IMG/VR virus record: IMGVR_UViG_3300043803_002450
Length of the DNA: 20,000 nucleotides
Reading direction: 5' to 3' (one strand)
From: an uncultured virus (IMG/VR IMGVR_UViG_3300043803_002450)
Taxonomy: Duplodnaviria > Heunggongvirae > Uroviricota > Caudoviricetes
The position numbers and the translations under genes are program-made. Of this stretch, positions 1,268 to 20,000 are shown piece by piece. The first letter of the stretch is position 1. Each line of letters begins with the position of its first letter. The notes beneath the pieces were generated by a model, which had not been told where the DNA came from, did not search any database, and saw only the letters and a program-made list of their open reading frames with translations.

Positions 1268-1446
1268 ATCTTCAAGAATTCACGGCAAGGCTTGATGAGC
1301 TTGATGATCACATTGCTGCCGTGCTGCAAATGTTCGAAGATGACACTGGCGTAAAGGTCGGGAGTCTCTTGGTCACGATCAATCAAGATGGTGATTACGA
1401 AATGACCACCGGCCTCGACTTTCCCGCATCAAAAGATGCAGAATGA
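1264..1446 (+). CDS. hypothetical phage protein
   Basis: 60 aa, ATGA overlaps at both ends, GGGGT RBS-like sequence upstream. Confidence 0.7.
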   Translation: MNLQEFTARLDELDDHIAAVLQMFEDDTGVKVGSLLVTINQDGDYEMTTGLDFPASKDAE

Positions 1447-2420
1447 AAAACTCTCTTCTCTTTTACGACCCCAGCCATTTCCAAGACATGACTCTTCCCG
1501 TCACTGCCGTCAATGAAGCCATGCTAACTGAACGAATGCTCGGCCACTTCTCCCCTCTTGAGATTTCCTCAGAAGCCTTCACCAAGGCTTACGAGCTGCC
1601 TATTGGCGATCACGTGGAGAAGAACTATAAAGGCCTCTCCTATCTGTCATGGCCCTTTGCCTTCCGCTACTTGAAGGAGCAATTTCCTGCTGTTTATGTG
1701 GCCTTTGAAGAAAAGGAAGCTGGCTGGCCGGTGTTCGGTCAAGAGGGCTGCTGGCTGCTTCGCCCCTATCTCACCGATGGCATCAAGCGCACTCCTGCGC
1801 TGGTGTTTCCCATCATGGACAACAAGCACAGCGCCGTAAAAGCTCTTGATGCTCGTCAAGTGAGCGACAACATCCAGCGGGCTTCCGTGAAATGCATCGC
1901 CACCTTCACTGGTCTTGGTCTCAAGCTCTACTCAGGCGAAGACATTCCTAAAGCAGACGATGAAAAAGAGCAATCTCCCCGGCTCCCGCTTCAACAGGAA
2001 ACTGCGAAGCCGTCTGCGCGGCGAAGCACGAAACAAGAGACGCCTGTGCCTGCTGATGATGCAATTGGAGGAGCTGAAACTGCTCCCTCCGGTGGAGGAG
2101 CCGAGTTCGATGGCAAAGCAGCGCTTCTTAGCTTTGGCGAAGCCAATCCCCTCGGCTACCCAGACCGCGCCACAAGCATGAAAGCTGTCAAGGCTGGGCT
2201 TGAAGCTCTTGGGCTTACCAAGGGAGAAGATGTGAAAGACAGGGAAATGTTTGCCAATGTGGTGACAACCATGGTCACATCATGGACCAAGGCCCAGGGT
2301 ATCAAGATCACCAAGACTGACATGACCAAGGAGATTGATTGCCTGCGAGCTATTTGCTCGGAAGGGTCAGTTGACAATGCCATTAAGGGGGTGTCTGTGT
2401 TCGTGGAAGGAAAAAAGTAG
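1443..2420 (+). CDS. sak: Sak/DUF1071-family (Rad52-like) single-strand annealing protein
   Basis: VEKNYKGLSYLSWPFAF...PIMDNKHSAV...DNIQRASVKCIATFTGLGLKLYSGEDIP matches the DUF1071 signature (LsYLSW...PvMD...R...K.ia..GLGl.iY.GEDlP). A low-complexity linker and a C-terminal domain follow, and exonuclease and SSB-like genes lie downstream. Confidence 0.85.
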   Translation: MKNSLLFYDPSHFQDMTLPVTAVNEAMLTERMLGHFSPLEISSEAFTKAYELPIGDHVEKNYKGLSYLSWPFAFRYLKEQFPAVYVAFEEKEAGWPVFGQEGCWLLRPYLTDGIKRTPALVFPIMDNKHSAVKALDARQVSDNIQRASVKCIATFTGLGLKLYSGEDIPKADDEKEQSPRLPLQQETAKPSARRSTKQETPVPADDAIGGAETAPSGGGAEFDGKAALLSFGEANPLGYPDRATSMKAVKAGLEALGLTKGEDVKDREMFANVVTTMVTSWTKAQGIKITKTDMTKEIDCLRAICSEGSVDNAIKGVSVFVEGKK

Positions 2421-2470
2421 ATAGGGCAGCAGCCGCGCTTGCGAGAAGTTTTGCAGGCGCGGTTATTGCC
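2411..2470 (+). other. putative -1 programmed ribosomal frameshift signal (slippery heptamer plus stimulatory hairpin)
   Basis: The last sak codons are GGA AAA AAG TAG, giving in-frame A_AAA_AAG at 2411-2417. A 7-nt spacer is followed by a stem 2425-2445/2450-2470 with 20 of 21 positions paired (5 G-U). The -1 frame is open for 40 codons to TGA 2537-2539. Confidence 0.72.
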
Positions 2471-2504
2471 GACAAGCTCAATACCCCTCTCGCGGAAGAC
2501 TTCA

Positions 2505-2741
2505 GTGATCTCTTTAGTCAGCCTCAAGCATTGCCCTGAATGTGGCTCTTTGTGGCACGACAAGCCAATTCCAGAGAAGAGCCGTTGGCTATTTGGAAAT
2601 AGCGAATGGTTCTCGAGAGTGATTGCCATCAGCTCTTGGCGGCAGGATCGTTGTATTGCCTATCAGTGCCCTGACTGTCACACTTGTTGGGACAGGGACA
2701 CTGGCGCCATCATTGACTCTTACGATTTGACCGTGCGATAG
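2505..2741 (+). CDS. small zinc-ribbon protein
   Basis: Two CxxC pairs (HCPECG...YQCPDCH). The start is uncertain: GTG 2505 preceded by GGAAG, or TTG 2439 as in the ORF track. Confidence 0.65.
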   Translation: MISLVSLKHCPECGSLWHDKPIPEKSRWLFGNSEWFSRVIAISSWRQDRCIAYQCPDCHTCWDRDTGAIIDSYDLTVR

Positions 2742-2773
2742 TGGCTTGTTACGACCTCGCCGTGTCTAAAGCT

Positions 2774-3538
2774 ATGCCCTCGTTCGAGCGCTTCGAGCCC
2801 AGGCGCATCAGTCTCAACGGGAAAAGACACTACATCTGCGAAAGCTTCCCGAATGTCCCAGAGGGCGTGCTCCTTCCTTCTGTCACTACCGTGCTGTCTT
2901 CCATGGCACCGGTGGCGAAGATCATGGCTCTCATGAACTGGCGGAAGCGAGTGGGAGATGACGAGGCCAATAGGCGCACAAGGCTTGCCGCCAATCGCGG
3001 CACCTGGCTCCATGGCGTCTTGGAGGATTGGTTCAATGGGGAAGACATCGAGCACCACCTGGAAAAAGCAAAGGAATGGGCCGTCTACTTCCAGACCATA
3101 GATCCATTCTTGGAGCACATCGCGGAGCCGGTCTTAGTTGAAAGCGCAGTGGCTTGGTTCGACCTCGACAGGGAAATTGGCTATAGCGGCACGCTTGATA
3201 TGGTCGCAAAGATGGCTGATGGTCGTACTGCCTTGATCGATTGGAAGACAAGCTTCAAGGAAAAGCCAGATTACCAACTGGCCGACTACAAACGACAGCT
3301 CGGGGCCTATTCAATGGCAGCAGAACAAATGTACGACACCTCTATTGACGAGGCCTGGTGCGTCATTTCCTGCTTCGACCCAGAGGACCAGAAAAGCAAG
3401 AGCATTCTTCAGTTGGTCCACCTTGATGGTTTTGAGCTGGTCAGCCAGCAGCGCATCATGGCCGATACGGTAAAGAGATATTTCAATGCGTGGTACCCCG
3501 GCGGCAAGGCATTTGCGCTCACGATGGACAGGGGGTGA
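2774..3538 (+). CDS. PD-(D/E)xK exonuclease (cyanophage/MGME1-like)
   Basis: Motifs LPSVTTVL, RGTWLH..LE, YSGTLD, LIDWKTS and QLGAY. ATG 2774 chosen; GTG 2741 is an alternative. Confidence 0.88.
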   Translation: MPSFERFEPRRISLNGKRHYICESFPNVPEGVLLPSVTTVLSSMAPVAKIMALMNWRKRVGDDEANRRTRLAANRGTWLHGVLEDWFNGEDIEHHLEKAKEWAVYFQTIDPFLEHIAEPVLVESAVAWFDLDREIGYSGTLDMVAKMADGRTALIDWKTSFKEKPDYQLADYKRQLGAYSMAAEQMYDTSIDEAWCVISCFDPEDQKSKSILQLVHLDGFELVSQQRIMADTVKRYFNAWYPGGKAFALTMDRG

Positions 3539-3610: not shown

Positions 3611-3862
3611 ATGGCTGGAAAGCCTCCTATCACCGCTGCAATCGACCTCACCCCTGACGTGCTCAACGCACTGAAGGCTGCTGGCCCCAATGATCGCGGC
3701 AACTACTCTCTCGACCTTGCCGTATGGGAGAACACCCGTCGCACTTCTGACCGCGCTCCCGGCTATACGGGCAGCGTCAAGGTGAAGGGCGCAGATCGCG
3801 ACGCTCCCAAAGGCTACGCTTCTGTGTGGACCAATATGGGCGGTTCTGACGACCTGTTCTGA
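3611..3862 (+). CDS. small ssDNA-binding-like protein (DUF736/OB-like)
   Basis: LAVWENTRRTSDRAPGYTGSVKV motif and an acidic-aromatic C-terminus (GSDDLF) typical of SSBs. It follows the annealase and exonuclease and has a good RBS. Confidence 0.65.
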   Translation: MAGKPPITAAIDLTPDVLNALKAAGPNDRGNYSLDLAVWENTRRTSDRAPGYTGSVKVKGADRDAPKGYASVWTNMGGSDDLF

Positions 3863-3988: not shown

Positions 3989-4582
3989 ATGCTTCTCACT
4001 GACAAAGAAATCAGCAAGCTTGCTGAGCTTGATATTTTTACGCCTTATGTTGGCGAAAAAAGCCGCAGCTTGGACGATGGCACGAAGGCCATCTCTTACG
4101 GTCTTTCACAGGCTGGCTATGACATCAGGCTCTCTCCTGATCAGTTCTTAGTGTTCGATGGGAAAAGTTGCAAGGGCAGAAGCAAGCCCTTCCTTGACCC
4201 CAAGCTTTCAGACGCAACCATTCCTTACGATGCTCCGCTCGTGCATGGCATCAATGGGTCGTGCTTCATTCTGCCCGCTCATAGCTTTGCTCTTGGCGTG
4301 AGCCTGGAGCTCATCTCTATGCCACCAAGCATCATGGGCTTGTGCGATGGGAAAAGCACGTATGCACGCTGCGGCATCATCATCAATGTCACTCCTATTG
4401 AACCTGGCTGGGCTGGTCATTTGACCATGCACATTGCCAATCCCACAGCATTTCCAGCCCGCATTTATGCCAATGAAGGCATTGTGCAAATTATGCTCGT
4501 GCAGCTTTCTAGTAATGTGGCACAGTCCTATTCAGGGCACTACCAGAATCAAGGCGCTAAGGTGCAGCTAGCTGCTGTCTAG
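3989..4582 (+). CDS. dcd: dCTP deaminase
   Basis: ISYGLSQAGYDIRL, GKSTYARCGIIINVTPIEPGWAG, IYANEGIVQ and YQNQ are diagnostic Dcd motifs. Confidence 0.95.
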   Translation: MLLTDKEISKLAELDIFTPYVGEKSRSLDDGTKAISYGLSQAGYDIRLSPDQFLVFDGKSCKGRSKPFLDPKLSDATIPYDAPLVHGINGSCFILPAHSFALGVSLELISMPPSIMGLCDGKSTYARCGIIINVTPIEPGWAGHLTMHIANPTAFPARIYANEGIVQIMLVQLSSNVAQSYSGHYQNQGAKVQLAAV

Positions 4583-4584
4583 TC

Positions 4585-4962
4585 TTGAGCGCTCTTGAGG
4601 ATCAGTTTCTTGGGCTTTGGCAAGCTCGTTATCCGCAGCTCTATTTAGAGCGTGAATACAGCGACATCGAGGCCTGGGAAAAGGATTATCAAGAGCGCTA
4701 TTCTCGCAGTAAACGCTCAAAAAGGTATCGTCTTGACTTTGCTCACCCCGACTCTCGTACTGGCATCGAAATACAGGGTGGTGTTTACAATCGTGGCCGC
4801 CACGTCACTGGCTCTGGGTATGAGCGAGATTGCAAAAAATATAATCTCGCCTATACGAGTGGTTGGACGATCTTTTTGCTCACGAATGCCATGGCCAAAG
4901 ACTCCACCTGGCTCTCGTTGATTGCTTCGCATATTTCCGAGTCATCCTCTCCATCTCTCTAG
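4585..4962 (+). CDS. DUF559/Vsr-like (restriction endonuclease fold) phage nuclease
   Basis: YRLDFAHP...GIEIQGGVY..GRH..GSGYERDCKKYN.A...GW pattern; TTG start. Confidence 0.8.
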   Translation: MSALEDQFLGLWQARYPQLYLEREYSDIEAWEKDYQERYSRSKRSKRYRLDFAHPDSRTGIEIQGGVYNRGRHVTGSGYERDCKKYNLAYTSGWTIFLLTNAMAKDSTWLSLIASHISESSSPSL

Positions 4963-5260
4963 CGGCTTCCATTATCAGCTCATCAGCGGCTTCAAGGTCC
5001 AAGTCTTTCTTTGCTAACGCTTGTCGAAGCTGGATGTTCTCCAGCATCAGACCTTGTATGGCCGTGTGCATTGAAGACCATCCTTCCAGCAGGTTCCTGG
5101 CTACTGGCTTGAGCTGATCAAGACTGCCACATTCATCGATTGCCTTCTTGTTGACCGTCAAGGCAAATTCCCTTTCAGGTGAATGCTCGAACGGTCCCAT
5201 AGCGGCTTGGTATTTTCGGCCATTGTAGTCGACCACATCCACGGGGATTACAAATTTCAT
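4880..5260 (-). CDS. coiled-coil protein with a possible NblA-like domain
   Basis: ATG 5260 (MKFVIP...), 126 aa. PFEHSPEREFAL...SLDQLKPVARNLLE resembles NblA and is followed by a heptad-rich tail. The ORF is likely real; the function is tentative. Confidence 0.55.
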   Translation of the reverse strand: MKFVIPVDVVDYNGRKYQAAMGPFEHSPEREFALTVNKKAIDECGSLDQLKPVARNLLEGWSSMHTAIQGLMLENIQLRQALAKKDLDLEAADELIMEAAREMERMTRKYAKQSTRARWSLWPWHS

Positions 5261-5405
5261 TGTTGCTTTACTGTCCTGAATACAGGCTAAAGCCAATGAG
5301 TGAAGGCAAGGAGGAGAAAGCCGAAAAGAAAATGGCGGTTGCCACGAAACTATTGCCGCGCAGCTCGGCAAGCCGTACAATTGGTCAGCCTTTATTGCTG
5401 CCTCA

Positions 5406-6113
5406 ATGCCGCCTGCTGCCGATCCGTTGAACGATGGCAAGAGCTGTTTGGTGCTTGTCGATTCAATGGGGAACAGTCTTTCCGTTGTGAACGATGCGCG
5501 TCAAAGCTTCGCTGCTAAGTCAGAAGAGTGGACCGAAAAAGACGGAAAGCTGTTGCGTTATCTGGCCCGCGAGCACCATACAAGCCCGTTCAGGGGCGTT
5601 GTCTTTAAGTGGTTCGTGAAAGCGCCGCTGTTTGTTGCCAGGCAATGGTGGAAACATACGGTCGCCTCGACTTACGTGGATGATCAGCTCGGTTGGAACG
5701 AGAAAAGCTTTCGCTATTGCTCGGCCGAAGATGCGGAGTTCTACATGCCAGCCGTCTTTATGCGGCAGAGCGAAAGCAACAGGCAGGCCTCAGACGGCCC
5801 TCTGACGAGCTCCGCTCAAGATCGGGCATCAATCTTCTATCGGGAAGCCATCGGCACCTCCAAGGCCGCTTACGAGGAGCTGGTGGCAATGGGAGTGAGC
5901 AAGGAGCAAGCGCGAGCAGTGCTGCCACCTGCGATGTACACTTCGTTTGTCTGGACTTGTTCGCTCCAGGCTCTGTTTCATTTCATCAGCCTCCGCAAAG
6001 GAGCTGGTGCCCAAGGAGAGATTATTGCTTATGCCGATGCCCTTCTCGAGCTAGGGAGCTCAGTGGCTCCTGAGGCTTTCGAGGCCTTTACTTCAAACAA
6101 CTACCAATTTTGA
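5406..6113 (+). CDS. thyX: FAD-dependent thymidylate synthase
   Basis: VVNDARQSF, HTSPF, APLFVARQWWKH, WNEKSFRY, EQARAVLP and AQGEI are ThyX motifs. Confidence 0.93.
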   Translation: MPPAADPLNDGKSCLVLVDSMGNSLSVVNDARQSFAAKSEEWTEKDGKLLRYLAREHHTSPFRGVVFKWFVKAPLFVARQWWKHTVASTYVDDQLGWNEKSFRYCSAEDAEFYMPAVFMRQSESNRQASDGPLTSSAQDRASIFYREAIGTSKAAYEELVAMGVSKEQARAVLPPAMYTSFVWTCSLQALFHFISLRKGAGAQGEIIAYADALLELGSSVAPEAFEAFTSNNYQF

Positions 6114-6115
6114 TC

Positions 6116-6493
6116 ATGAACGATTCCGTGAACAGCCCCGCTCATTACTCGTTTGGAGGCATTGAATGCATCGAAGCGCTTGAAGCCTGCTCGTCTAACG
6201 AGGGTTTTTGTGCTCATTTGAAACTTACGGCGATTGCTTATCTCTGGCGGTACGAAAAAAAAGGCGGCGTCGAAGATTTGAAAAAGGCACAGTGGTACTT
6301 AAAACGCCTAATTGCAATTAAAGAGCAAGAAGAAGCTAAAGCTCAGAGGATTAAAAAAGAGAGCTCAAAAGTGATGGAATATATAGCTAATCATGATCCT
6401 GATGACTATTTGATCAGCGGCTGCCCTGACGGCTTTTGCCCCATGCCTGAATTCAGGCAAGGCCCTCGAGAAATTTTCTCTCCGATCAACTAG
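6116..6493 (+). CDS. DUF3310 (SaV/T7 gp1.7-like) protein with a Cys-containing tail
   Basis: DSVNSPAHY..GGIECIEA...YLWRYEKKGGVEDLKKAQWYL matches DUF3310. Confidence 0.85.
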   Translation: MNDSVNSPAHYSFGGIECIEALEACSSNEGFCAHLKLTAIAYLWRYEKKGGVEDLKKAQWYLKRLIAIKEQEEAKAQRIKKESSKVMEYIANHDPDDYLISGCPDGFCPMPEFRQGPREIFSPIN

Positions 6494-6968
6494 CTAAGCA
6501 TAAAGAAAGCGGCCAAATACGAGCCGCTTTTTCTTTCGCTTCATGAATGGGCACGATGCGCTGCGTTTCCTGCATCCACTCTTCCCATGGGCCAATTGAA
6601 CTATGGGCACTAATGAAGCTATGAGCATATATCCAACTCATCAACGCTTCTTCGCGCTGTGCGCTCCAAAATAATTGAGGACGCCACCATTCAAACAAAG
6701 GCAAGTTGCTCTTGGAAGCGTTACAGCTTAAGCAACAAGGAGCACTGTTCCACTTTGAGAAGTGCGGACCGCCCTTGCTCTTGGGCACAATGTGATCAAT
6801 GGTCAGCTTCTCGTTCCATTTGCCGCAATAGGCACAGGCACAGTGGCCAAAAGTGCCCCGTAGCGGGTAGTCCTCAAAAATGCTTTTTCGAAAGCGACGC
6901 TTAGCTTCTCCAGGGCGCAAAACAGACAATGAAAACAGAAGTTCTTCGGCACCATTGTCTTTTCCCAT
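6486..6968 (-). CDS. HNH endonuclease
   Basis: CAYCG...LTIDHIVPKSKGG....N....CLSCNASKSN. Confidence 0.9.
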   Translation of the reverse strand: MGKDNGAEELLFSLSVLRPGEAKRRFRKSIFEDYPLRGTFGHCACAYCGKWNEKLTIDHIVPKSKGGPHFSKWNSAPCCLSCNASKSNLPLFEWWRPQLFWSAQREEALMSWIYAHSFISAHSSIGPWEEWMQETQRIVPIHEAKEKAARIWPLSLCLAS

Positions 6969-7080
6969 GGCAGCAATTCGCTGTCTTGCCTTTAGCTTAA
7001 GGCAGCAAAAAGACCATCGCGAAGGCTATAAAGCATCGCCACGGAAGCCCTAGAATGAGCATGACGGTTGCATTGAAGCT

Positions 7081-7290
7081 GTGAAAAGCTGGCAGGAACA
7101 GCTCGCCAATTTGGCAGTAAGCGTAACGGCCGGCATGCTTCTGGCCACTGGTGGCACGATGGTTGGCATTGGAATGCAACAGGCTCGAATTACTGAGCAA
7201 GTGGAGACTGTCACTGAAAAGCTGGATGCCCTGACCAATAATATGAAGGACTTAGAAGTGCGAGTGCGCTCCCTCGAAATTCGACGCTAG
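7081..7290 (+). CDS. membrane-anchored coiled-coil protein (lysis cassette)
   Basis: Hydrophobic N-terminal helix followed by a heptad repeat ending RVRSLE; lies upstream of the endolysin; GTG start. Confidence 0.6.
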   Translation: MKSWQEQLANLAVSVTAGMLLATGGTMVGIGMQQARITEQVETVTEKLDALTNNMKDLEVRVRSLEIRR

Positions 7291-7315
7291 GCTTAAGCAA
7301 ACGCTTTTGATTTCC

Positions 7316-7459
7316 ATGACCTCCATCGAATGGTTCGTGATTGGTGGCATCATCATCGCTGCTGTTGATCAAGTTATCGAAAAGACTCCCTACAAGAGCA
7401 ACAATATCATTCAACTCATTCTGACAGGCCTCAAAGCAATCTTTCGCGTGAAGGGCTGA
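7316..7459 (+). CDS. putative small holin-like protein (47 aa)
   Basis: Manual translation MTSIEWFVIGGIIIAAVDQVIEKTPYKSNNIIQLILTGLKAIFRVKG. Two hydrophobic or amphipathic segments and a basic C-terminus, ending 3 nt before the endolysin ATG. Confidence 0.6.
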   Translation: MTSIEWFVIGGIIIAAVDQVIEKTPYKSNNIIQLILTGLKAIFRVKG

Positions 7460-7462
7460 CGA

Positions 7463-8407
7463 ATGTCCGCCGAGCGAGTATTCTGGGATCAGTGCTTTGC
7501 TATTGCCCGCAAATGCGGGGCACGGTTTCCAGAGCTCGTAGCGGCTCAATGTTGTCTTGAAAGTGGTTTTGGCAAGCACTTTTCTGGCGCCAACAACGTC
7601 TTGGGACTTAAGGGAGACGGGACGACCGTCTCTACCAAAGAGTTTTACGATGGTCAGTGGGTAACGATTAAGGCTGGCTTTCTTGACTTTCCAAGCATTG
7701 CCGCCTGTATTGAATACCTTATCACTCGTTGGTACAAGGACTACCGCCATTTCAAGGGCATCAACAATGCCCCCAACCGCTACGCAGCGGCTCGGATGCT
7801 TTATCAACAGAAATACGCGACGGACCCTGACTACCCGACGAAGCTTTCTAAGTTGATGAAACAATACGCTCCTGAATCAACAACTGTCACCATGATTGGC
7901 CCCAAGAAGCGTCCTCAAGATTTTGGTTTTAAGCAAGGCGATTCGCATCTTATTGTGAACGATGCCAGCGAAACCATGAAAGCTTTTTCCTTCGAGGGAA
8001 AGCTGCTATGGGAGATTCCTTGCTTGGCTCGGGGGCAATATAGTGACTTCGAGTGGAAGCTGCAAAAATCTGACACTCCTCCGGGGCTTTACCGGCTCGG
8101 TCAGCTTTACAACGACTACGCCCTTCATGGCGACAAGGCCCCTTACGACAGGACGCTCATGGCATATGGCTGGGCCTTTTATGACATGATCGAGCTAGAG
8201 GGCCAGGAAAAAGGAACTGGACGTGCTGGAATTGGTCTCCATGGAGGCGGCAGTGCGCTGGGATGGCCTGGAGCCTGGGCACCTAAGCAAGCGCTTGTGG
8301 CAACTCACGGTTGTTGCAGGATCTTCAATCAAGACCTTATCAACAAAGTACTTCCGCTCTACAGAAAAGGAACGGTGTTCGTAAGCGTTTTTCAAGAAAG
8401 TCAATGA
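7463..8407 (+). CDS. endolysin: GH73 glucosaminidase plus L,D-transpeptidase (YkuD-like) domain
   Basis: N-terminal AAQCCLESGFG, NNVLGLKG and YATDPDY (FlgJ/GH73). C-terminal TPPGLY, IGLHGG and THGCCRI (YkuD His/Cys motif). Confidence 0.87.
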   Translation: MSAERVFWDQCFAIARKCGARFPELVAAQCCLESGFGKHFSGANNVLGLKGDGTTVSTKEFYDGQWVTIKAGFLDFPSIAACIEYLITRWYKDYRHFKGINNAPNRYAAARMLYQQKYATDPDYPTKLSKLMKQYAPESTTVTMIGPKKRPQDFGFKQGDSHLIVNDASETMKAFSFEGKLLWEIPCLARGQYSDFEWKLQKSDTPPGLYRLGQLYNDYALHGDKAPYDRTLMAYGWAFYDMIELEGQEKGTGRAGIGLHGGGSALGWPGAWAPKQALVATHGCCRIFNQDLINKVLPLYRKGTVFVSVFQESQ

Positions 8408-8811
8408 ACTGGCGGGAATGGTTCCTCGCGCTTTGTTACGAGCTAGCCCTTGAGCTGGCCAAACAACGCCCTTCCATCGTTTCCCAGTGGTGGTATAAAC
8501 AGCTTTTGGAATGGTGCAGGCCTGCGTGGGTGGAACGGAAAACGCAAACGACGTTACAGGCCGTTGACAAGCAGGCTGCAACATTGGTTGAGCAATGGGA
8601 GAAAGAAGAGCGAGAGCATCGCTCAGAAACTCTTGCCGCCAAAGCTCAGGAGCTTTTCCCGAGGGCTACTGTGACGCCTTTGCTCGACGCAGTGGTGCCA
8701 AGCGTGATGATCGTCCACGAAGCGCCAGACGATGCCAGCGAGGCAATCAAGGCCCTTGGCGCAGAACTCCGCATCACTTGGACACTCGGGAATCAAGACC
8801 CATCCCAATAA
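8404..8811 (+). CDS. hypothetical protein
   Basis: ATG 8404 overlaps the endolysin stop (ATGA); 135 aa, MNWREWFLALC... Confidence 0.65.
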   Translation: MNWREWFLALCYELALELAKQRPSIVSQWWYKQLLEWCRPAWVERKTQTTLQAVDKQAATLVEQWEKEEREHRSETLAAKAQELFPRATVTPLLDAVVPSVMIVHEAPDDASEAIKALGAELRITWTLGNQDPSQ

Positions 8812-9124
8812 AGTTGTGCAGCGCCATGTAGTGCGCAAGTCCATCGCCATATTCCAGCCCAAACACGTCATAAACGGCCCATCGATAAGAACCGCGATCT
8901 TCCACTTCGGCGCGATACATCAGTTTTGCAATCTGCCGGAAAGCCCTTGCCCGGCTTTCGTAGTCCAAGCTGTCCCACCAAGCGTCATCGCTTGCTTGCT
9001 GACTTCGTTCAAAAGCCGCAAAGGATTCTTGAAGCTTTTTCAATTCAGGCGAGTTCAAGAAATCGCCAAGAGACCGTTTCCCCTCGCTGGCAATTAAATC
9101 ATCTTGTCCCTCAAGGCCTTCCAT
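8774..9124 (-). CDS. hypothetical phage protein
   Basis: Protein-like ORF (WWDSLDYE...GSYRWAVYDVFG...YMALHN) at the end of the minus-strand run; start uncertain. Confidence 0.6.
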   Translation of the reverse strand: MEGLEGQDDLIASEGKRSLGDFLNSPELKKLQESFAAFERSQQASDDAWWDSLDYESRARAFRQIAKLMYRAEVEDRGSYRWAVYDVFGLEYGDGLAHYMALHNFIGMGLDSRVSK

Positions 9125-9276
9125 TTGCGCAATTCCTTTTCGTGATAATTTAACCACGAATCAATGGCCGCGACAATCGTTTCGTAACAGGCATCCGCAC
9201 AATCTTCGTCTGTCATTAGCTCTTGCAAGATTTCGGCAAGCGCTTCTTGCTGGCTTTCCCTAAAACCTAGTTCCAA
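9094..9276 (-). CDS. hypothetical phage protein
   Basis: 60 aa helical ORF with a TTG start, directly downstream of the 407 aa gene. Confidence 0.6.
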   Translation of the reverse strand: MELGFRESQQEALAEILQELMTDEDCADACYETIVAAIDSWLNYHEKELRKWKALRDKMI

Positions 9277-9300
9277 GGCAATGGTCCGCGAAAGTGCTTT

Positions 9301-10524
9301 CTATACTACTTCCACCCAGCCAATCATGCCCAAGGCTTTGGCGCTGGTAGAACTGTCAACAGTCAAAATAAGAGTGTCACTCACTCCAGAAGCATTTTGT
9401 CCGAGGGCAAGACGAATGGCCTCTGCCGCTGTATAGTTATTGGCACTGCCTTGGCTGACGAAGCCAGAGTCGATAACCGTGCCTCCCGTAGCAGTGCCGC
9501 TTGTCGTCACTTCTACATTTCCACGGCCATTGTTTGCCGCTGTCCACGTAACGCCTGAAAGGGTCGGGTTGAGACGCAAGCGCCATAGCACCACGTCACT
9601 GGTGGCGATAGTCGTTGAAATGCGAACTGGCAAGATTACATTTCCAGTGCGACCGCTAGCCATTCGAATGCCTGCTGTAATTCTTTCGCCAGACGTATTA
9701 GGAACAGCCGCAAGATCATGGCTAACAGAATAAATTGCGCCGTCCGGTTCGTAGCCTCCTTCGCTAAGGACACTGCAGCAAATCTGCTTCATCGTCGCGC
9801 CAGAGGCTTGAGCAGTTGCATTGTAAATTCGGTATGACATTGGCAAAATAGCAGTTGTCATGTAAACGCTATTTAGCGCATTAAAATGCTCAAATTCATG
9901 GCAGTAAGTCACTTCTCCATTGACAACAAACCCACACCTCACACGTCCAACGCCAAGCCACTCCAAGTCAGCAGCAAAGATTTGCGCTTTTGAAAAATCA
10001 AGGGAGCTCAGTGTATTTATGTTCCAGGATGATTGATTAACGACATTTTCAACCACTGCGCCAGAAGAATAGCTTCTAATGACAAACTGAACCGTGGTTC
10101 CACTAGCTCGAACCATCACTCCATTTTGATCATTAAACAAACCAGCCTCTTGAATAAGCCCAGAAGCCAATGGAGCGCCGGCAAAACTTTGCAAAAGCAT
10201 CATACTCTTGCCTGCTTGATAGGGGAAATTTTGCTTGGTGCGGCGAAGAACTGTATCGCCAGAAGCCGTGGTGACTGTCATCGCCACGCTGCTTTCATTT
10301 GTCAAGAAGTTAGAAGTGCCACTGCCAACAATGCTGTCGAACCATTGATCAGGGCGCTTGTCATAGCGCATTGTGCTGTCAAACAGCGTATAAGGACTGC
10401 TTGTACGCTGTCTTCCAAAGGCATCGACAGCGCCACTATCTACGCCACTTTGAACAAGTTGGCCTCGATAGTCGGCAAGAATGTGAGTTTCAAACTGCTC
10501 TCCACCCTTTACAACTTGTGCCAC
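9301..10524 (-). CDS. conserved phage protein, probably virion-associated (beta-rich)
   Basis: DAFGRQRTSSPYTLFDS...YQAGKS...DLEWLGVGRVRCGF...TAILP is a pattern I recognise from cyanophage-type proteins. Ser/Thr/Gly rich, with a GAGG RBS before GTG. Confidence 0.7.
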   Translation of the reverse strand: MAQVVKGGEQFETHILADYRGQLVQSGVDSGAVDAFGRQRTSSPYTLFDSTMRYDKRPDQWFDSIVGSGTSNFLTNESSVAMTVTTASGDTVLRRTKQNFPYQAGKSMMLLQSFAGAPLASGLIQEAGLFNDQNGVMVRASGTTVQFVIRSYSSGAVVENVVNQSSWNINTLSSLDFSKAQIFAADLEWLGVGRVRCGFVVNGEVTYCHEFEHFNALNSVYMTTAILPMSYRIYNATAQASGATMKQICCSVLSEGGYEPDGAIYSVSHDLAAVPNTSGERITAGIRMASGRTGNVILPVRISTTIATSDVVLWRLRLNPTLSGVTWTAANNGRGNVEVTTSGTATGGTVIDSGFVSQGSANNYTAAEAIRLALGQNASGVSDTLILTVDSSTSAKALGMIGWVEVV

Positions 10525-10548
10525 GATTCATCCTCATTTCCCTCTATC

Positions 10549-10785
10549 CTAATCTTTCTGGTTTCCATAAGCCTCATCGTATTCCGTGGCAATCGAAATC
10601 ATGGCGTCAGAAACACTCTGTGGTGCGTAGCCGCAAGCCATCATGAACTGATAGAAAGCCCTTGCCACTGCAGGAGCGGCATCGGCACTGTAAACGTGAT
10701 TGATTTCTTGATACGAACAAGTATCGTGGCAAACTCCATCATCAGAAAAACGATGGGAAAAGGAAATTGTGTTGACCACTGCCAT
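10549..10785 (-). CDS. hypothetical protein
   Basis: 78 aa ORF in the minus-strand gene run. Confidence 0.6.
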   Translation of the reverse strand: MAVVNTISFSHRFSDDGVCHDTCSYQEINHVYSADAAPAVARAFYQFMMACGYAPQSVSDAMISIATEYDEAYGNQKD

Positions 10786-10791
10786 TGCATG

Positions 10792-10822
10792 AAAAAGGAG
10801 GCCCCGTCATGGTAGCCTCCTT
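10792..10822 (-). terminator. putative intrinsic terminator
   Basis: Minus strand AAGGAGGC-TACCATGACGGG-GCCTCCTT-TTT: an inverted repeat with a U tract, 15 nt after the stop at 10838. Confidence 0.6.
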
Positions 10823-10837
10823 GTCCTGATAGGTCAA

Positions 10838-10978
10838 TTAACGATTGCCCTGGCCAATCCTTAGTTTTCGACCGTGGCTTGGCTTGCTATTTTTGCCGTT
10901 GCCTTGTCTGGTGGTTTTGGGCTGACTGATAATAATGCGTTTCGAGCTCGAGGCGCCCGCTTTTGCCTTTACTGCCAT
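10838..10978 (-). CDS. small highly basic protein (46 aa)
   Basis: Manual translation MAVKAKAGASSSKRIIISQPKTTRQGNGKNSKPSHGRKLRIGQGNR. Its ATG overlaps the upstream TAA (TAATG). The TRQGxG...GQG pattern recurs in cyanophage small proteins. Confidence 0.65.
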   Translation of the reverse strand: MAVKAKAGASSSKRIIISQPKTTRQGNGKNSKPSHGRKLRIGQGNR

Positions 10979-11505
10979 TAGAAGCCGCTGGTAGTACTAT
11001 TCGAAAACATCATAGTGTCGTCGTTCGACTCTGAAACTGGCTGTGGCGCGTAAGGATCAGCGGGCCACACGGGGTAGTTGGCGCCAGTGATGTAGGCAGC
11101 GAGATCAGTGGTGTCAAGGGTGTCACGAATTACTCCCACCTTCACGCCGGTAGCCAGGCGGATGTCCTCGCGCCAAGTCTTAAGCAGTGGGTCAGCAGCT
11201 TTGCCGTTGTCAGCTTCGCGGATGATGATCCAGTCCGTAGGGGCCAGCAGCGTGTTCGCCGTGGTGCGCGTCTGCGCCACCCACTGCTCGACCAGTTGCG
11301 TGTGGTCCTTCGGGATCAGCTCGCCCTCGGCGTCGTAGCCCCAGTAAAAACGTTGGTCGTAAACCGGAGGGTCAGGTACTTCAGTGATACCAATGGCTGC
11401 ACGTTCTTCTGGGCTGCTTAATCTCAGAAAATTAGCCGGGTACTGAATCCCATCGTGCGTGAAGGCCACGTCTGGGGCCAAGGGTTTGCCGTCAAGAAGG
11501 AACAC
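10978..11505 (-). CDS. tail-fibre-associated / fibre assembly-like protein
   Basis: GTG 11505 gives (M)FLLDGKPLAPDVAFTHDGIQYPANFLRL...DQRFYWG...LLAPTDWIIIR...WREDIR...WP. The TDW...R...WP pattern is typical of tail fibre chaperones. Confidence 0.72.
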   Translation of the reverse strand: MFLLDGKPLAPDVAFTHDGIQYPANFLRLSSPEERAAIGITEVPDPPVYDQRFYWGYDAEGELIPKDHTQLVEQWVAQTRTTANTLLAPTDWIIIREADNGKAADPLLKTWREDIRLATGVKVGVIRDTLDTTDLAAYITGANYPVWPADPYAPQPVSESNDDTMMFSNSTTSGF

Positions 11506-11532
11506 AAGTGCTGGAGCGGGAAGTCTCAGTGT

Positions 11533-11538
11533 ATTATA
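11533..11538 (-). promoter_or_regulatory. -10 element (TATAAT) upstream of the fibre-associated gene
   Basis: Perfect TATAAT on the minus strand, 27 nt upstream of GTG 11505; no clear -35. Confidence 0.45.
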
Positions 11539-11563
11539 CCCTGACCCTGGCATACTCCATTCC

Positions 11564-12412
11564 ATGCATAAAACCCTTCAGCAGGCTTGGCTCGAATTCA
11601 AGCAGGAACGAAGTACCGTTGTCCACCCGACCACGTTTGAGGCCGATTACAAGCAGGTGAGCAAATGGATTGAACGATGCCCCATAACCGACTTAAAAGA
11701 AGGACGGCAGGTCATGACGTGGGTGCTGTCGCAAAGTCCAGTAAAAAGCACGCGGCGAGTTGCGATGTACATCAAGTCGCTCTATCGGTGGGCTTCAAGC
11801 GAGGATATTGGCTATCTAGAACGAAATCCAATCACCACTTTTCGCATGCCAAAACCCCCTCAGGCAGACGAGGAAATCATTGTTATACCGCGCAATGAAG
11901 TGTCGCTTTTACTGTCTGCCTTTGAGGCGCGTCAACACAAGCACAATTGGGCTGCCTATTCAGAATTCATGCTTCAAACTGCCATGAGGACAGGCGAAGT
12001 AAGGGCATTGCGATGGGAAGACATTAAGGACAATCGCGCCCTTGTTCACAGCAATTACACTCTCACCCATGGCCTTAAGAACAGCACAAAAACAAACAAA
12101 AAACGAGCAGTGCCATTAAATGGCAGGTGCTTGGAAATTTTGAGCACGATGGAAGGGGATAATGATTTCATTTTTCCGTATAATCGCTACGCTTTTCAAT
12201 CCTTCTTCTACGACAGGGCTAAAGAGCTGTACGCCGCTGGCCTCACTTCCCATCGCTATCGGCCATATGACCTGCGTCACACTGCGATCAGCAGGTGGAT
12301 AGAGGGAGGCATTCCCGTGGCGCAAGTAGCTAAATGGGCGGGAAATAGTTCAGAAGTGATTTGGAAGCACTACTGCAATGTCACTCAAGAATACGAAATG
12401 CCCGTGCTCTGA
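11564..12412 (+). CDS. tyrosine recombinase/integrase (cyanobacterial XisA-like catalytic variant)
   Basis: TAMRTGEVRALRWED (R), TKT (K), YDLRHTAIS (YxxR in place of HxxR), WAGNS and KHY (catalytic Y). 282 aa from ATG 11564. Confidence 0.92.
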   Translation: MHKTLQQAWLEFKQERSTVVHPTTFEADYKQVSKWIERCPITDLKEGRQVMTWVLSQSPVKSTRRVAMYIKSLYRWASSEDIGYLERNPITTFRMPKPPQADEEIIVIPRNEVSLLLSAFEARQHKHNWAAYSEFMLQTAMRTGEVRALRWEDIKDNRALVHSNYTLTHGLKNSTKTNKKRAVPLNGRCLEILSTMEGDNDFIFPYNRYAFQSFFYDRAKELYAAGLTSHRYRPYDLRHTAISRWIEGGIPVAQVAKWAGNSSEVIWKHYCNVTQEYEMPVL

Positions 12413-12438
12413 CCAATTAACCTTTTCTTCCTATTCCC

Positions 12439-12663
12439 ATGACTGACGAACAAATTCAAGAGATCATGTACATGCACGCAAACTGCTTCACCAATTACAT
12501 CTGCTTCAGCGATCAGGGCGTGCTCGACTTTGCCCGTGCCGTACTGGACCAGGCTGGATACAAAACACCAGAGCCGCAACCCGAGCCTATCGGAGCAAGT
12601 TATGCCGACGCTATGTGGCGATTTTCGGAAAGCGTGGACAAACTGCAGGGGAAGTTGGAATGA
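12439..12663 (+). CDS. hypothetical protein
   Basis: 74 aa ORF with DFARAVL, downstream of the recombinase and abutting the convergent gene exactly. Confidence 0.6.
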   Translation: MTDEQIQEIMYMHANCFTNYICFSDQGVLDFARAVLDQAGYKTPEPQPEPIGASYADAMWRFSESVDKLQGKLE

Positions 12664-12888
12664 CTACTGGGCTTCAAGTTCGGTGGCAATGGCGAGGAAT
12701 TGCTCTCGAATTAAATCAGCCTTTTCGTACCAGCAGTTGTCAATAATCTCGTGCTCAACCGGCACCACCTGATCCGCAGCAGCTCGCAGGGCGGCGGCAG
12801 CAATCTCCCGGGAGTAACACTCAGGGTTGATCTCGTACTGCATGGCAGCATCCAGCACAGCCTGCGCGGGGGGAGAGAGGTCAGTCAT
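12664..12888 (-). CDS. hypothetical cyanophage-type small protein
   Basis: MTDLSPPAQAVLDAA...AAALRAAADQVVP...LAIATELEAQ. ATG 12888 overlaps the upstream stop (ATGACTGA). Confidence 0.7.
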   Translation of the reverse strand: MTDLSPPAQAVLDAAMQYEINPECYSREIAAAALRAAADQVVPVEHEIIDNCWYEKADLIREQFLAIATELEAQ

Positions 12889-13246
12889 TGATCTGCTCCA
12901 GTGCGCGAAGAAGGATGTTGTAATGGGCTGAGTCCAGTTCAGCATCATCCAGTATTGCCAACGCCTGCTCCTTCAAGCTCAGTGGCTTGGGGCGGCGTGC
13001 GGCACGGAGTTGTCGTGATTCACCAGACCAACCTTCTCGATTTAGCCATTCACAGCACGCCTGCAGCTCCTGGTCGGCAGCGGCCTGGATCTCGGGTCCG
13101 CGTTGATCCCAGCCCCATTGCGCGGCCATTGAGACAACATAATCTTCTGCTTCTGAGCCCGTGTACTGACGGTGGTTGCTTTCTTCCCACCACTGCTGCA
13201 CCAGCTCCGGCGGTGGCGTTATCGGGTGCTTGTAATCTTGGGTCAT
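12881..13246 (-). CDS. hypothetical cyanophage-type small protein
   Basis: HPITPPPELVQQW...ADQELQACCEWL...LRAARRPKPLSLKEQAL; GGAGG RBS upstream. Confidence 0.75.
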   Translation of the reverse strand: MTQDYKHPITPPPELVQQWWEESNHRQYTGSEAEDYVVSMAAQWGWDQRGPEIQAAADQELQACCEWLNREGWSGESRQLRAARRPKPLSLKEQALAILDDAELDSAHYNILLRALEQIND

Positions 13247-13352
13247 CGTCGATCCTCCAATCGGCGGTCATGGGGCAGGGTGTTAGCGCACCGCTGCTCC
13301 ACCACATTACCATCCTGACAAGCCGCCACACAGGTCTTGTTCTCTAGTGGGG

Positions 13353-18685: not shown

Positions 18686-18688
18686 GGG

Positions 18689-19573: not shown

Positions 19574-19983
19574 TAGATGGCCACTCCTGTAGCGGCGCCA
19601 GAGCCTTGGAAGCTAATCTGGGCGCTCACTACTTCGCCGACGCTGGCGCCGTAAGAGGCGCTGGTGATGAAAGCGTTGAGGGTGACGGTCTTGCTGCCGA
19701 GCGCCAGGATGAAGGCGATGGGGGAAGTGCTAGGGGCGCCAGTGCTGATGACGCGCTTGACTTGCGTGGCGGCGTCGTTGCGGGCGGTGTCGTCTTCGTA
19801 GTACAGAAGCGTGGCCGAGCCGCTGTACGAGCGGATGCCGGGCGTGTAGCTGCGGTCGTCATCGCCCAGCGTGGTGGTCTCCAGCATCTCAAGGTCGGCC
19901 TGCAGGGACCAGTTGGTAACCTTCACCTGCGTGGTGCCCGCGATGCTGAGGGTGCCGTCTTTGCCGGTGTAGTACTTGCTCAT
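19573..19983 (-). CDS. putative major tail tube protein (siphovirus type)
   Basis: YTGKDG...VTNWSL...LETTTLGDDDRSYTPGIRSYSGS...ITSASYGASVGEVVSAQISFQGSG is a typical tail tube pattern; 136 aa. Confidence 0.78.
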   Translation of the reverse strand: MSKYYTGKDGTLSIAGTTQVKVTNWSLQADLEMLETTTLGDDDRSYTPGIRSYSGSATLLYYEDDTARNDAATQVKRVISTGAPSTSPIAFILALGSKTVTLNAFITSASYGASVGEVVSAQISFQGSGAATGVAI

Positions 19984-20000
19984 GATGTGGTCACGACCAG

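What the first reader, a model, noticed from the sequence alone, without database searches (positions are those of the whole stretch)
2409..2539. Candidate -1 programmed frameshift giving two isoforms of the Sak/Rad52-like annealase
Seen in sequence: sak ends GGA-AAA-AAG-TAG, which places A_AAA_AAG in the correct X_XXY_YYZ phase directly before the stop. Seven nt later a hairpin starts (GGCAGCAGCCGCGCTTGCGAG-AAGT-TTTGCAGGCGCGGTTATTGCC, 20 of 21 positions paired). Its five G-U pairs form only on the + strand RNA, and no U tract follows, so it does not look like a terminator. The -1 frame continues VDRAAAALARSFAGAVIADKLNTPLAEDFSDLFSQPQALP* (40 aa). Established: A_AAA_AAG plus a 3' stem-loop is the efficient bacterial -1 signal of E. 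coli dnaX and IS3-family elements, and known phage frameshifts are mostly in tail chaperone, capsid and tail genes. Inference: the phage makes 325-aa and ~365-aa annealases that could co-assemble in one ring. The extension contains EDFSDLF, which resembles the SDDLF tail of the nearby SSB-like protein and may dock a partner. I know of no described frameshift in a phage annealase gene.
Basis: partly seen in the sequence, partly recalled or inferred. Interest (0 to 1): 0.88.

Follow-up and report, generated by a model that had tools for sequence, protein, structure and literature searches.

The report
Conserved -1 frameshift in phage annealase
A cyanophage-type Sak (Rad52-like) DNA-annealing gene ends in a conserved ribosome slip site and RNA hairpin, so the phage very probably makes a short and a tail-bearing form of its recombinase from one gene.

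Summary
The sak gene (1443-2420) ends GGA-AAA-AAG-TAG, so A_AAA_AAG (2411-2417) is in phase. A 20-bp hairpin (2425-2470) starts 7 nt later. The -1 frame stays open for 40 codons, to TGA 2537-2539.

The heptamer alone is no more than chance (4 in the window, 5 expected). The comparative evidence is what carries the case:
- All 86 distinct homologous contexts (133 loci, Sak identity 49-98%, including the cultured Synechococcus phage S-CBS4) have an in-phase slippery heptamer 0-3 nt before the stop: 44 A_AAA_AAG and 42 G_GGA_AAG.
- The heptamer type changes at least 3 times on the Sak tree and never becomes non-slippery.
- The -1 frame shows a coding signature. Synonymous fraction is 0.46, against 0.13 and 0.05 in the other frames, and 0 of 34 sequences have stops.
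- 23 of 41 loci have no start codon for the -1 frame.
- The hairpin covaries in two registers.
- No in-frame fused Sak was found in 1.84 billion proteins.

I conclude this is a canonical -1 programmed frameshift giving 325-aa and 365-aa isoforms. Literature searches found no description of one in an annealase gene. The function of the tail is not established.

The parts
1443..2420 (+). sak, zero-frame CDS (325 aa), Sak/Rad52-like single-strand annealing protein
   Evidence: ORF. Pfam SSAP_Sak PF06378 E 1.7e-18, 67.1 bits against cut-off 22.3. phrog_8492 Sak-like E 4.9e-43. AF2: C-terminal domain 220-325 at pLDDT ~90, five helices, the last (310-324) ending at the C-terminus.
2411..2417 (+). 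slippery heptamer A_AAA_AAG in X_XXY_YYZ phase
   Evidence: In-phase heptamer in 86 of 86 distinct homologous contexts: 44 A_AAA_AAG, 42 G_GGA_AAG.
2418..2420 (+). zero-frame stop TAG, directly after the heptamer
   Evidence: The stop lies 0 nt (46 contexts) or 3 nt (40 contexts) after the heptamer in the 86 contexts. Stop codons: TAG 69, TAA 14, TGA 3.
2425..2470 (+). stimulatory RNA hairpin: 5' arm 2425-2445, loop 2446-2449, 3' arm 2450-2470, 7 nt after the heptamer
   Evidence: MFE fold, z -2.74. Homologues: median spacer 7 nt, median dG -28.9 kcal/mol, median z -3.1 over 34 unique sequences. Covariation in the window's stem register: 81.9% of cells paired against 35-49% when slid, 7 of 20 pairs with changes on both sides.
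2417..2539 (+). -1 frame extension (40 codons + TGA), reached by re-reading G2417. Transframe product = codons of 1443-2417 followed by 2417-2536, 365 aa
   Evidence: Extension of 23-43 aa (median 31) in all contexts. Coding signature in this frame only. No own start codon in the window or in 23 of 41 loci.
2417..2470 (+). clade-wide conserved core of the extension (V-D-R-A-A-A-A-L-A-R-S-F-A-G-A-V-I-A), encoded by the hairpin itself
   Evidence: Alignment A4 of 44 extensions: K1 and G16 invariant; A6, A8, A11 and F14 at least 90%.
2505..2741 (+). downstream small zinc-ribbon gene (CPEC...CPDC), probable start GTG 2505; overlaps the extension ORF by 35 nt in another frame
   Evidence: Zero-frame translation. 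The start is inferred from the N-termini of homologues in L006/L036. Weak Zn-ribbon Pfam hits, all below cut-off. No PHROG.
2741..3538 (+). PD-(D/E)XK exonuclease, presumed partner of the annealase
   Evidence: PF12705 E 6.7e-08. phrog_298 exonuclease E 5.4e-47.
3611..3862 (+).
   Evidence: No Pfam or PHROG family. AF2 pLDDT 81, order beta-alpha-beta-beta-beta, tail disordered. No fold match: Foldseek E > 1, best VIA Z 3.1.

Best explanation
The 3' end of sak is a canonical -1 programmed ribosomal frameshift cassette.

Most ribosomes read GGA AAA AAG, stop at TAG 2418 and release the 325-aa Sak. A fraction pause on the hairpin (2425-2470) with the P- and A-site tRNAs on A_AAA_AAG and slip back one base. 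They then read GTA GAT AGG... and add 40 residues up to TGA 2537, giving a 365-aa isoform.

Shown by sequence comparison: the slip site, spacer, structured stem and translated -1 frame are all under selection throughout this Sak clade.

Inferred: that the shift happens, and at what rate.

The added tail is an Ala-rich amphipathic helix with a Gly cap, then a short hydrophobic stretch and an acidic, variable end. It sits on the last helix of the C-terminal domain. In other phage annealases this region docks the exonuclease and SSB. I therefore infer that the frameshift fixes a ratio of tail-less to tail-bearing subunits, and that the tail changes partner binding or assembly. That functional step is not shown.
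For: 1. In-phase slippery heptamer in 86 of 86 distinct 220-nt contexts. These came from 133 loci examined; one further locus was cut off by its end. The set includes the cultured phage S-CBS4, whose record annotates sak only to the TAG.
2. Selection acts on nucleotides, not on the protein. The codon that supplies the first heptamer base encodes T, R, E, A, G, S or L but always ends in A. In G_GGA_AAG contexts it encodes K, Q, E, A or V and always ends in G.
3. The heptamer type changes 8 times by parsimony on a FastTree of 84 Sak rows, and at least 3 times across well-supported branches. It never becomes non-slippery, and the A-site codon is always AAG.
4. -1 frame coding signature in 34 unique sequences over 17 codons. 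Column entropy by codon position is 0.83/0.64/1.32. The synonymous share of differing codon pairs is 0.463, against 0.129 (zero frame) and 0.049 (+1). Stops within 60 nt: 0, 24 and 26 of 34.
5. No conserved start. 23 of 41 loci, including the window and S-CBS4, have no ATG/GTG/TTG in the -1 frame from its upstream stop to 3 codons past the conserved Asp.
6. Hairpin 6-8 nt downstream in most sequences (median spacer 7, median z -3.1).
7. Covariation of the hairpin. In register A (17 sequences) 92.5% of cells are paired, against 34-54% when slid, and 8 of 15 pairs change on both sides. In register B (16 sequences, including the window) 81.9% are paired, against 35-49%, and 7 of 20 pairs change on both sides.
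8. The gene after the extension differs between loci (zinc ribbon, small membrane peptide, or the exonuclease directly) and lies in different frames, yet the extension is kept.
9. In 41 of 86 contexts an ATG or GTG opening at least 25 codons overlaps or abuts the extension's stop (30 are ATGA). The same holds for 22.6% of all stop triplets in the same loci.
10. No terminator-like site.
11. The G_GGA_AAG form has no long homopolymer run, which argues for ribosomal rather than transcriptional slippage.
Against: - There is no direct evidence of the shifted protein: no proteomics, ribosome profiling or reporter assay.
- The heptamer by itself is at chance frequency in the window.
- A few homologues fold weakly: L011 z -1.27, L033 z -1.57.
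- The hairpin occupies two different registers, so one fixed structure is not conserved.
- An upstream SD-like stimulator of the dnaX kind is absent from the window. It is present in only 26 of 86 contexts.
- Slipperiness of AAG in the A site depends on the host's tRNA-Lys set, which I did not examine. The host is unknown.
- The 500-shuffle controls do not correct for relatedness. The slid-partner controls do.
- For function: the tail matches no family or solved structure, and its C-terminal half is poorly conserved.
Confidence: 0.85

Rival explanations
1. The -1 ORF is a separate small gene. It would be translated from its own start or by re-initiation after the sak stop, not as an extension of Sak.
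For: 18 of 41 loci have some ATG/GTG/TTG in the -1 frame near the site. Gene callers in public data have called 10 stand-alone peptides of 30-63 aa here.
Against: Those start codons sit at inconsistent positions. 23 of 41 loci have none, including the window and S-CBS4. This reading does not explain why an in-phase slippery heptamer is invariant in 86 of 86 contexts while the amino acid before it varies.
Confidence: 0.04
2. The element is only an RNA structure between sak and the next gene (transcript stability, processing, attenuation or translational coupling). The -1 frame is not translated.
For: The hairpin is strong and covaries. It lies just before the next gene's start region.
Against: The three-base periodicity and a synonymous share of 0.46 in one frame only, with 0 of 34 stops, extend beyond the stem. 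The extension stays open for 23-43 codons in all contexts. The invariant heptamer is unexplained. No U-tract or terminator-like site is present. The stem register moves while the peptide is kept.
Confidence: 0.06
3. Transcriptional slippage on the A run adds one A to part of the mRNA, and normal translation of that mRNA gives the long form.
For: A_AAA_AAG contains a run of six A. The outcome (frame -1) would be the same.
Against: 42 of 86 contexts use G_GGA_AAG, which has only three-base runs. A positioned hairpin 6-8 nt downstream is the signature of ribosomal, not polymerase, slippage (recalled knowledge). Six A is short for efficient bacterial RNA-polymerase slippage (recalled). Contigs of four runs showed no inserted or deleted base at the run, but contigs drop rare variants, so this carries little weight.
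Confidence: 0.03
4. Assembly or sequencing error, or a decaying gene: the true gene is one continuous frame.
For: Homopolymer runs are error-prone. Two related contigs (L036, L040) do have broken sak frames further upstream.
Against: The same arrangement is found in 86 independent contexts from many samples and in a sequenced isolate. No in-frame Sak-plus-tail protein appears among 25 hits in 1.84 billion representative proteins, or in the word-indexed search of longer proteins.
Confidence: 0.01

Closest known systems
E. coli dnaX tau/gamma -1 frameshift (recalled knowledge)
   Same: The same heptamer A_AAA_AAG, a stem-loop a few nucleotides downstream, and two isoforms of a DNA-metabolism protein that works as an oligomer.
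   Different: In dnaX the shifted product is the shorter one, because a stop follows at once in the -1 frame. Here the shifted product is longer by 23-43 aa. The dnaX SD-like stimulator about 10 nt upstream is absent from the window and present in only 26 of 86 relatives. Here the zero-frame stop abuts the slip site.
Phage tail assembly chaperone frameshift (lambda G/GT and relatives; recalled knowledge)
   Same: G_GGA_AAG, used by 42 of 86 relatives, is as I recall the lambda G/GT slip site. In both cases a phage gene yields a minor, C-terminally extended form at a fixed ratio.
   Different: The gene class differs: recombination rather than virion assembly. The extension here is a short peptide rather than a whole domain. 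A strong covarying hairpin is present here.
IS3-family transposase OrfA/OrfAB frameshift (recalled knowledge)
   Same: An A_AAA_AAG-type heptamer plus a downstream structure, joining two frames.
   Different: IS3 fuses two sizeable ORFs to make the active enzyme. Here the zero-frame product is already a complete annealase.
Red-beta / RecT C-terminal domains that bind the exonuclease and host SSB (review PMC11611040; passages read)
   Same: The frameshift tail is appended to the annealase's C-terminal domain. In Red-beta this region docks lambda Exo and SSB through overlapping sites. An exonuclease gene follows sak here.
   Different: The annealase subfamily differs (Sak, PF06378). No sequence or fold similarity was found for the C-terminal domain or the tail. 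No binding is shown. The review does not mention a frameshift ('frameshift' occurs 0 times).

Membership tests
Canonical bacterial/phage -1 programmed ribosomal frameshift cassette | X_XXY_YYZ heptamer in phase with the upstream frame | tested here: met
   A_AAA_AAG at 2411-2417, phase checked from 1443. 86 of 86 homologous contexts.
Canonical bacterial/phage -1 programmed ribosomal frameshift cassette | Stable RNA structure starting about 5-9 nt after the heptamer | tested here: met
   Spacer 7 nt, 20 bp, z -2.74. Median spacer 7 over 34 sequences. Compensatory changes in 8 of 15 and 7 of 20 pairs.
Canonical bacterial/phage -1 programmed ribosomal frameshift cassette | -1 frame open, under protein-level selection, and without its own initiation signal | tested here: met
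   Synonymous share 0.463 against 0.129 and 0.049; 0 of 34 with stops. 23 of 41 loci without any start codon.
Canonical bacterial/phage -1 programmed ribosomal frameshift cassette | Two protein products detected, dependent on heptamer and structure | not testable with these tools
   Needs a reporter assay, western blot, mass spectrometry or ribosome profiling.
dnaX-type cassette specifically | Internal SD-like sequence about 10 nt upstream of the heptamer | tested here: not met
   No GGAG or GAGG lies 8-18 nt upstream in the window. It is present in 26 of 86 contexts: 21 of 42 G-type and 5 of 44 A-type.
Sak / Rad52-like single-strand annealing proteins (Pfam PF06378) | Match to the family profile above the curated cut-off | tested here: met
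   67.1 bits against 22.3, residues 48-180. phrog_8492 E 4.9e-43.
Sak / Rad52-like single-strand annealing proteins (Pfam PF06378) | Ring formation and ssDNA annealing activity | not testable with these tools
   The AF2 model of the N-terminal domain was of low confidence (pLDDT mostly below 70).
Intrinsic transcription terminator | GC-rich hairpin followed by a U tract | tested here: not met
   0 terminator-like sites in 2200-2800. The sequence after the stem is GACAAGCUCAAUACC.
SSB / OB-fold protein (the 83-aa neighbour, 3611-3862) | Profile or fold match to an OB-fold ssDNA-binding protein | tested here: inconclusive
   No Pfam or PHROG hit. Foldseek PDB E > 1 and best VIA-wide Z 3.1, with no SSB among the rows. 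Only the acidic tail ending in F resembles SSB tails.

The most novel reading that the evidence does not exclude
The frameshift acts as a stoichiometry device for a recombinase, comparable to tau/gamma in the clamp loader. Each Sak ring or filament would take in a fixed minority of tail-bearing subunits. The conserved helix-strand-acidic tail would be a docking peptide that tethers the annealase to one partner: the adjacent PD-(D/E)XK exonuclease, the 83-aa acidic-tail protein, or host SSB/replisome. Resection and annealing would then be coupled at a set ratio. If so, the C-terminal partner switching known for Red-beta is here encoded by recoding rather than by competition for one site.
Probability: 0.3. 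Interest if true: 0.8.

Novelty: new member of a known kind. Interest (0 to 1): 0.62.

Why it matters
Programmed frameshifts in tailed phages are known mainly from tail-chaperone, capsid and tail genes (recalled knowledge). This would be a well-supported case in a recombination gene. My seven literature searches and the papers I opened show no description of one.

Practical consequences:
- It changes the annotation of a widespread aquatic phage clade, including the isolate S-CBS4, whose record stops sak at the TAG.
- It gives a compact natural cassette in two heptamer versions and two stem registers for studying -1 shifting in cyanobacteria.
- It warns people who port Sak-type annealases for recombineering that the zero-frame ORF alone may omit a functional isoform. 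This matters because annealase C-termini decide partner and host compatibility (review PMC11611040; passages read).

Tried and rejected
- **Exonuclease binding.** Complex prediction with the exonuclease alignment A5 and the tail alignment A4 returned 'no answer' (scores 0.01 and 0.00; mark 0.32). This is no evidence either way.
- **Fold of Sak.** Foldseek of the AF2 Sak model against the PDB found no match at E <= 0.001.
- **Tail versus known sequences.** Against PDB sequences the best hit was E 0.068, to designed proteins sharing ARKFAGTV. Against Pfam the best was E 0.16. Nothing usable.
- **RNA evidence.** The look-up of sequencing runs listed no RNA holder on record. There were four 'RNA?' runs from one study, kept only as contigs. 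Laid on 2200-2750 they showed a related strain with no inserted or deleted base. Contigs cannot show rare slippage or expression.
- **In-frame fusion, word-indexed search.** The search of longer proteins gave one hit, P0002 (214 aa). It is a miscalled ORF that runs into the tail from unrelated upstream sequence.
- **In-frame fusion, exhaustive profile search.** 25 hits. Ten are stand-alone calls of 30-63 aa. Fifteen are proteins of 122-3675 aa with 4-23 matched stretches each; I fetched two of these (P0026, P0027) and both were repeats. None is of Sak length.
- **Motif-anchored re-tally.** It missed 26 loci and reported 'no heptamer' for L036 and L040. This was an artefact: their sak frames are broken upstream. 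Anchoring on the tblastn match ends restored both.
- **Alignment error.** L013's range held a stop codon. I left L013 out of alignment A3.
- **SSB-tail mimicry.** I compared the tails of the 83-aa protein (SDDLF, EEVPF, DDFF, NDVF, EEAPF) with the extension tails locus by locus. There was no co-variation.
- **TAG read-through into the zinc-ribbon frame.** Possible in the window and L001-L003 only. 24 of 34 sequences have zero-frame stops within 60 nt.
- **Unavailable resources.** The window's own assembly is not held.
Full report
**1. What is in the window**

The + strand ORF 1443..2420 encodes a 325-aa protein. It matches Pfam SSAP_Sak (PF06378, E 1.7e-18, 67 bits against a cut-off of 22) and PHROG 8492 'Sak-like ssDNA annealing protein' (E 4.9e-43).

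The gene ends GGA AAA AAG TAG. Position 2411 is 968 bases after 1443, which is 2 mod 3. A_AAA_AAG (2411-2417) is therefore in the X_XXY_YYZ phase that tandem -1 slippage needs. The zero-frame stop follows at once.

Seven nucleotides after the heptamer a hairpin begins. It spans 2425-2470 with 5 + 15 base pairs around one C/A mismatch and the loop AAGU. Five of the pairs are G-U or U-G.

- As + strand RNA, 2405-2500 folds at -35.9 kcal/mol, z -2.74, with 3 of 200 shuffles as stable.
- The complement folds less well, z -1.34.
- No terminator-like site is found in 2200-2800.
- The -1 frame from the heptamer reads KK and then 40 codons to TGA 2537-2539.

**2. Is it more than chance?**

Not from this sequence alone. 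AAAAAAG occurs four times in the window against 5.0 expected. By the ORF coordinates, only this copy is in phase with its gene. The case rests on comparison with homologues.

**3. Homologues**

- GenBank phages hold one relative, Synechococcus phage S-CBS4. It appears as two records of one genome, with 65.5% nucleotide identity over 60% of the query.
- Three scans of IMG/VR and one of genome contigs gave further loci.
- With the window and S-CBS4 these make 133 loci whose sak 3' end could be read, plus one cut off by its locus end. They collapse to 86 distinct 220-nt contexts, with Sak identity to the window of about 49-98%.
- L032 and L070 are truncated before the 3' end.
- L198 (29% identity) is outside the clade and has no heptamer or extension.

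**4. The slip site is selected as nucleotides**

- All 86 contexts carry an in-phase slippery heptamer. 44 have A_AAA_AAG: 43 directly before the stop and 1 one codon before it. 42 have G_GGA_AAG: 39 one codon before the stop and 3 directly before it.
- The codon that supplies the first heptamer base encodes seven different amino acids in the A-type and five in the G-type. Its third base is nevertheless always A or G respectively.
- I built a FastTree of 84 Sak sequences. L036 and L040 were left out because their zero frames are open for fewer than 200 codons. The three codons at the site were excluded from the alignment.
- On that tree the heptamer type changes 8 times by parsimony, and at least 3 times across branches with strong support. 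It never changes to a non-slippery sequence.
- Both heptamers place AAG in the A site.

**5. The -1 frame is translated sequence**

I used 34 unique sequences, aligned without gaps over the 17 codons after the site.

| Measure | -1 frame | zero frame | +1 frame |
|---|---|---|---|
| Synonymous share of differing codon pairs | 0.463 | 0.129 | 0.049 |
| Sequences (of 34) with a stop within 60 nt | 0 | 24 | 26 |

Column entropy at -1-frame codon positions 1, 2 and 3 is 0.83, 0.64 and 1.32.

- The extension is 23-43 aa long, median 31.
- It begins with a conserved core of consensus (V/I)-D-L-A-A-A-R-L-A-R-A-F-A-G. In 44 aligned extensions the Gly is invariant, and three Ala and the Phe are at least 90% conserved. 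A hydrophobic stretch and a D-x-D-G-x-P-L/F-like acidic segment follow, and then a variable end.
- The frame has no initiation signal of its own. 23 of 41 loci, including the window and S-CBS4, have no ATG, GTG or TTG from the upstream -1 stop to three codons past the conserved Asp. The starts present in the other 18 sit at inconsistent positions.
- The following gene varies: a zinc-ribbon protein, a small membrane peptide, or the exonuclease directly. It lies in different frames relative to sak. The conserved peptide is therefore not the start of a downstream gene.
- In 41 of 86 contexts an ATG or GTG opening at least 25 codons overlaps or abuts the extension's stop, and 30 of these are ATGA. 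The figure for all stop triplets in the same loci is 22.6%. This is a modest sign that genome packing treats the extension's stop as the gene boundary.

**6. The hairpin is selected as structure**

- Folding the 70 nt after each of 34 unique heptamers gives a median spacer of 7 nt, a median energy of -28.9 kcal/mol and a median z of -3.1 against mononucleotide shuffles. The weak exceptions are L011 (z -1.27) and L033 (z -1.57).
- Two registers exist. Register A has its loop on the Leu-Ala codons. Register B, which includes the window, has its loop about 7 nt further on.
- Register A (17 sequences): 92.5% of cells pair, against 34-54% when the 3' partner is slid by 1-3 columns. 8 of 15 pairs change on both sides. 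Several of these are paired synonymous changes, such as CGC...GCG becoming CGT...GCA.
- Register B (16 sequences): 81.9% of cells pair, against 35-49% when slid. 7 of 20 pairs change on both sides.
- The shuffle controls in these calls ignore relatedness. The slid controls do not.

**7. No unshifted version exists in the data**

- A profile of the extension was searched against longer proteins in the 5.8-billion-protein index. It found only P0002, an ORF call that enters the tail from unrelated sequence.
- The exhaustive profile search of 1.84 billion representatives gave 25 hits at E <= 0.001.
  - Ten are stand-alone calls of the -1 ORF, 30-63 aa long.
  - Fifteen are proteins of 122-3675 aa matched in 4-23 short stretches. 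I read two of these and both are repeats.
  - None is of Sak length.
- S-CBS4's record annotates sak only up to the TAG.

**8. Mechanism**

The anatomy is that of a standard bacterial -1 programmed frameshift. The heptamer is in phase, the spacer is 6-8 nt, the stem is stable, and the transframe ORF is short.

The long form is the zero-frame protein through Lys325, followed by the 40 residues encoded from 2417 (G2417 is read twice), giving 365 aa.

- I prefer ribosomal to transcriptional slippage because half the clade uses G_GGA_AAG, which has no long homopolymer run, and because the stem is positioned downstream.
- Efficiency cannot be computed here. From memory, the range among known cassettes runs from a few per cent (lambda G/GT) to about half (dnaX).
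- A dnaX-like SD element 8-18 nt upstream is absent from the window. It is present in 26 of 86 contexts: 21 of 42 G-type and 5 of 44 A-type. It may simply reflect the codons of a conserved V-E-V motif.

**9. What the tail may do**

- AF2 on 13 Sak sequences models the C-terminal domain (about 220-325) with pLDDT near 90. It forms five helices, and the last (310-324) ends at the C-terminus. The tail therefore continues from that helix.
[quoted passage not shown] It also says that Red-beta uses overlapping sites for the two. It does not mention any frameshift.
- Here sak is followed by a PD-(D/E)XK exonuclease (2741-3538) and by an 83-aa protein with an acidic tail ending in F (3611-3862).
- My inference, not shown, is that the shift sets a ratio of tail-bearing subunits and that the tail alters partner docking or assembly.
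That stretch is also the start of the zinc-ribbon gene in another frame.
- The tails of the 83-aa protein do not co-vary with the extension tails.
- The 83-aa protein itself has no family or fold match that would make it an SSB.

**10. Comparison with the literature**

- Seven full-text searches on frameshifting with annealing proteins, Sak, SSAP, cyanophage, PRFect or S-CBS4 returned nothing describing a frameshift in an annealase gene. For these I saw listings and abstract starts only.
- Term searches inside the PRFect paper, a 2025 frameshifting preprint and the S-LBS1 cyanosiphovirus paper found no relevant passage.
- The original S-CBS4 genome paper (Huang et al. 2012) was not in the library, and I did not read it.
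- Supplements were not consulted.

**11. Verdict**

This is a real, conserved and apparently undescribed instance of a well-known recoding mechanism in a new gene class. The existence of the cassette and its selection are shown by comparison. The shift itself, its rate and the role of the tail remain to be tested.

Noticed in passing
window 2505-2741: A small zinc-ribbon gene (CPEC...CPDC, 78 aa from GTG 2505) lies between sak and the exonuclease. It overlaps the frameshift extension by 35 nt in another frame. It is present in only some related loci, at different distances and in different frames. No Pfam hit passes the cut-off and there is no PHROG hit.
   Followed up: partly
window 2421-2741: In the window and L001-L003 the sak zero frame stays open after the TAG all the way into the zinc-ribbon gene. 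TAG read-through would therefore fuse the two. This is not conserved: 24 of 34 relatives have zero-frame stops within 60 nt.
   Followed up: partly
window 3611-3862: A conserved 83-aa protein has a disordered acidic C-terminal tail ending in F (GGSDDLF; other loci end EEVPF, DDFF, NDVF or EEAPF). AF2 gives pLDDT 81 with the order beta-alpha-beta-beta-beta. It has no Pfam or PHROG family and no PDB fold match (best Z 3.1). It looks like a new small partner protein of the recombination module rather than a recognisable SSB.
   Followed up: partly
L004-L019 and others, 8-18 nt upstream of the heptamer: GGAG or GAGG (often within GTGGAGG) lies about 10 nt upstream of the slip site in 21 of 42 G_GGA_AAG contexts and 5 of 44 A_AAA_AAG contexts. 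This resembles the dnaX stimulator but may be a by-product of conserved V-E-V codons. It is absent from the window.
   Followed up: partly
L004-L009, L029, L031, L034, L036 and others, downstream of the extension: Many loci carry a small Cys-rich gene after the extension. It has a hydrophobic N-terminus and the motif ACNQP...CPLGYY...YC(V/I)PSR. Its ATG often overlaps the extension's TGA.
   Followed up: no
L036, L040, L013: In L036 and L040 the sak zero frame is open for only 175 and 104 codons before the stop, so the frame is broken upstream (assembly error or decay). The slip site and extension are nevertheless intact. L013's tblastn range includes a stop near the N-terminus.
   Followed up: partly
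L122-L125: The same sak cassette occurs on contigs binned into MAGs labelled Methylacidiphilales, Verrucomicrobia and Gammaproteobacteria. These are probably phage contigs swept into bins. The host of the clade outside S-CBS4 is therefore uncertain.
   Followed up: no
window 3989-20000: The rest of the window looks like a temperate siphovirus. It holds dCTP deaminase, ThyX, a DUF3310 nucleotide-kinase-like protein, an HNH endonuclease (- strand), a glucosaminidase/YkuD lysin, a tyrosine integrase (11459-12412), and large tail-fibre-like genes on the - strand (DUF7483, Laminin_G_3, SPRY, Phage_fiber_2). It has no tRNA genes.
   Followed up: no
window 2443, 2445, 2455, 2464: A related strain seen in wastewater-metagenome contigs and in L001 differs inside the stem. 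G>A at 2443 and 2445 turns G-U pairs into A-U. A>G at 2455 turns U-A into U-G. T>C at 2464 opens the end pair of the inner stem.
   Followed up: partly
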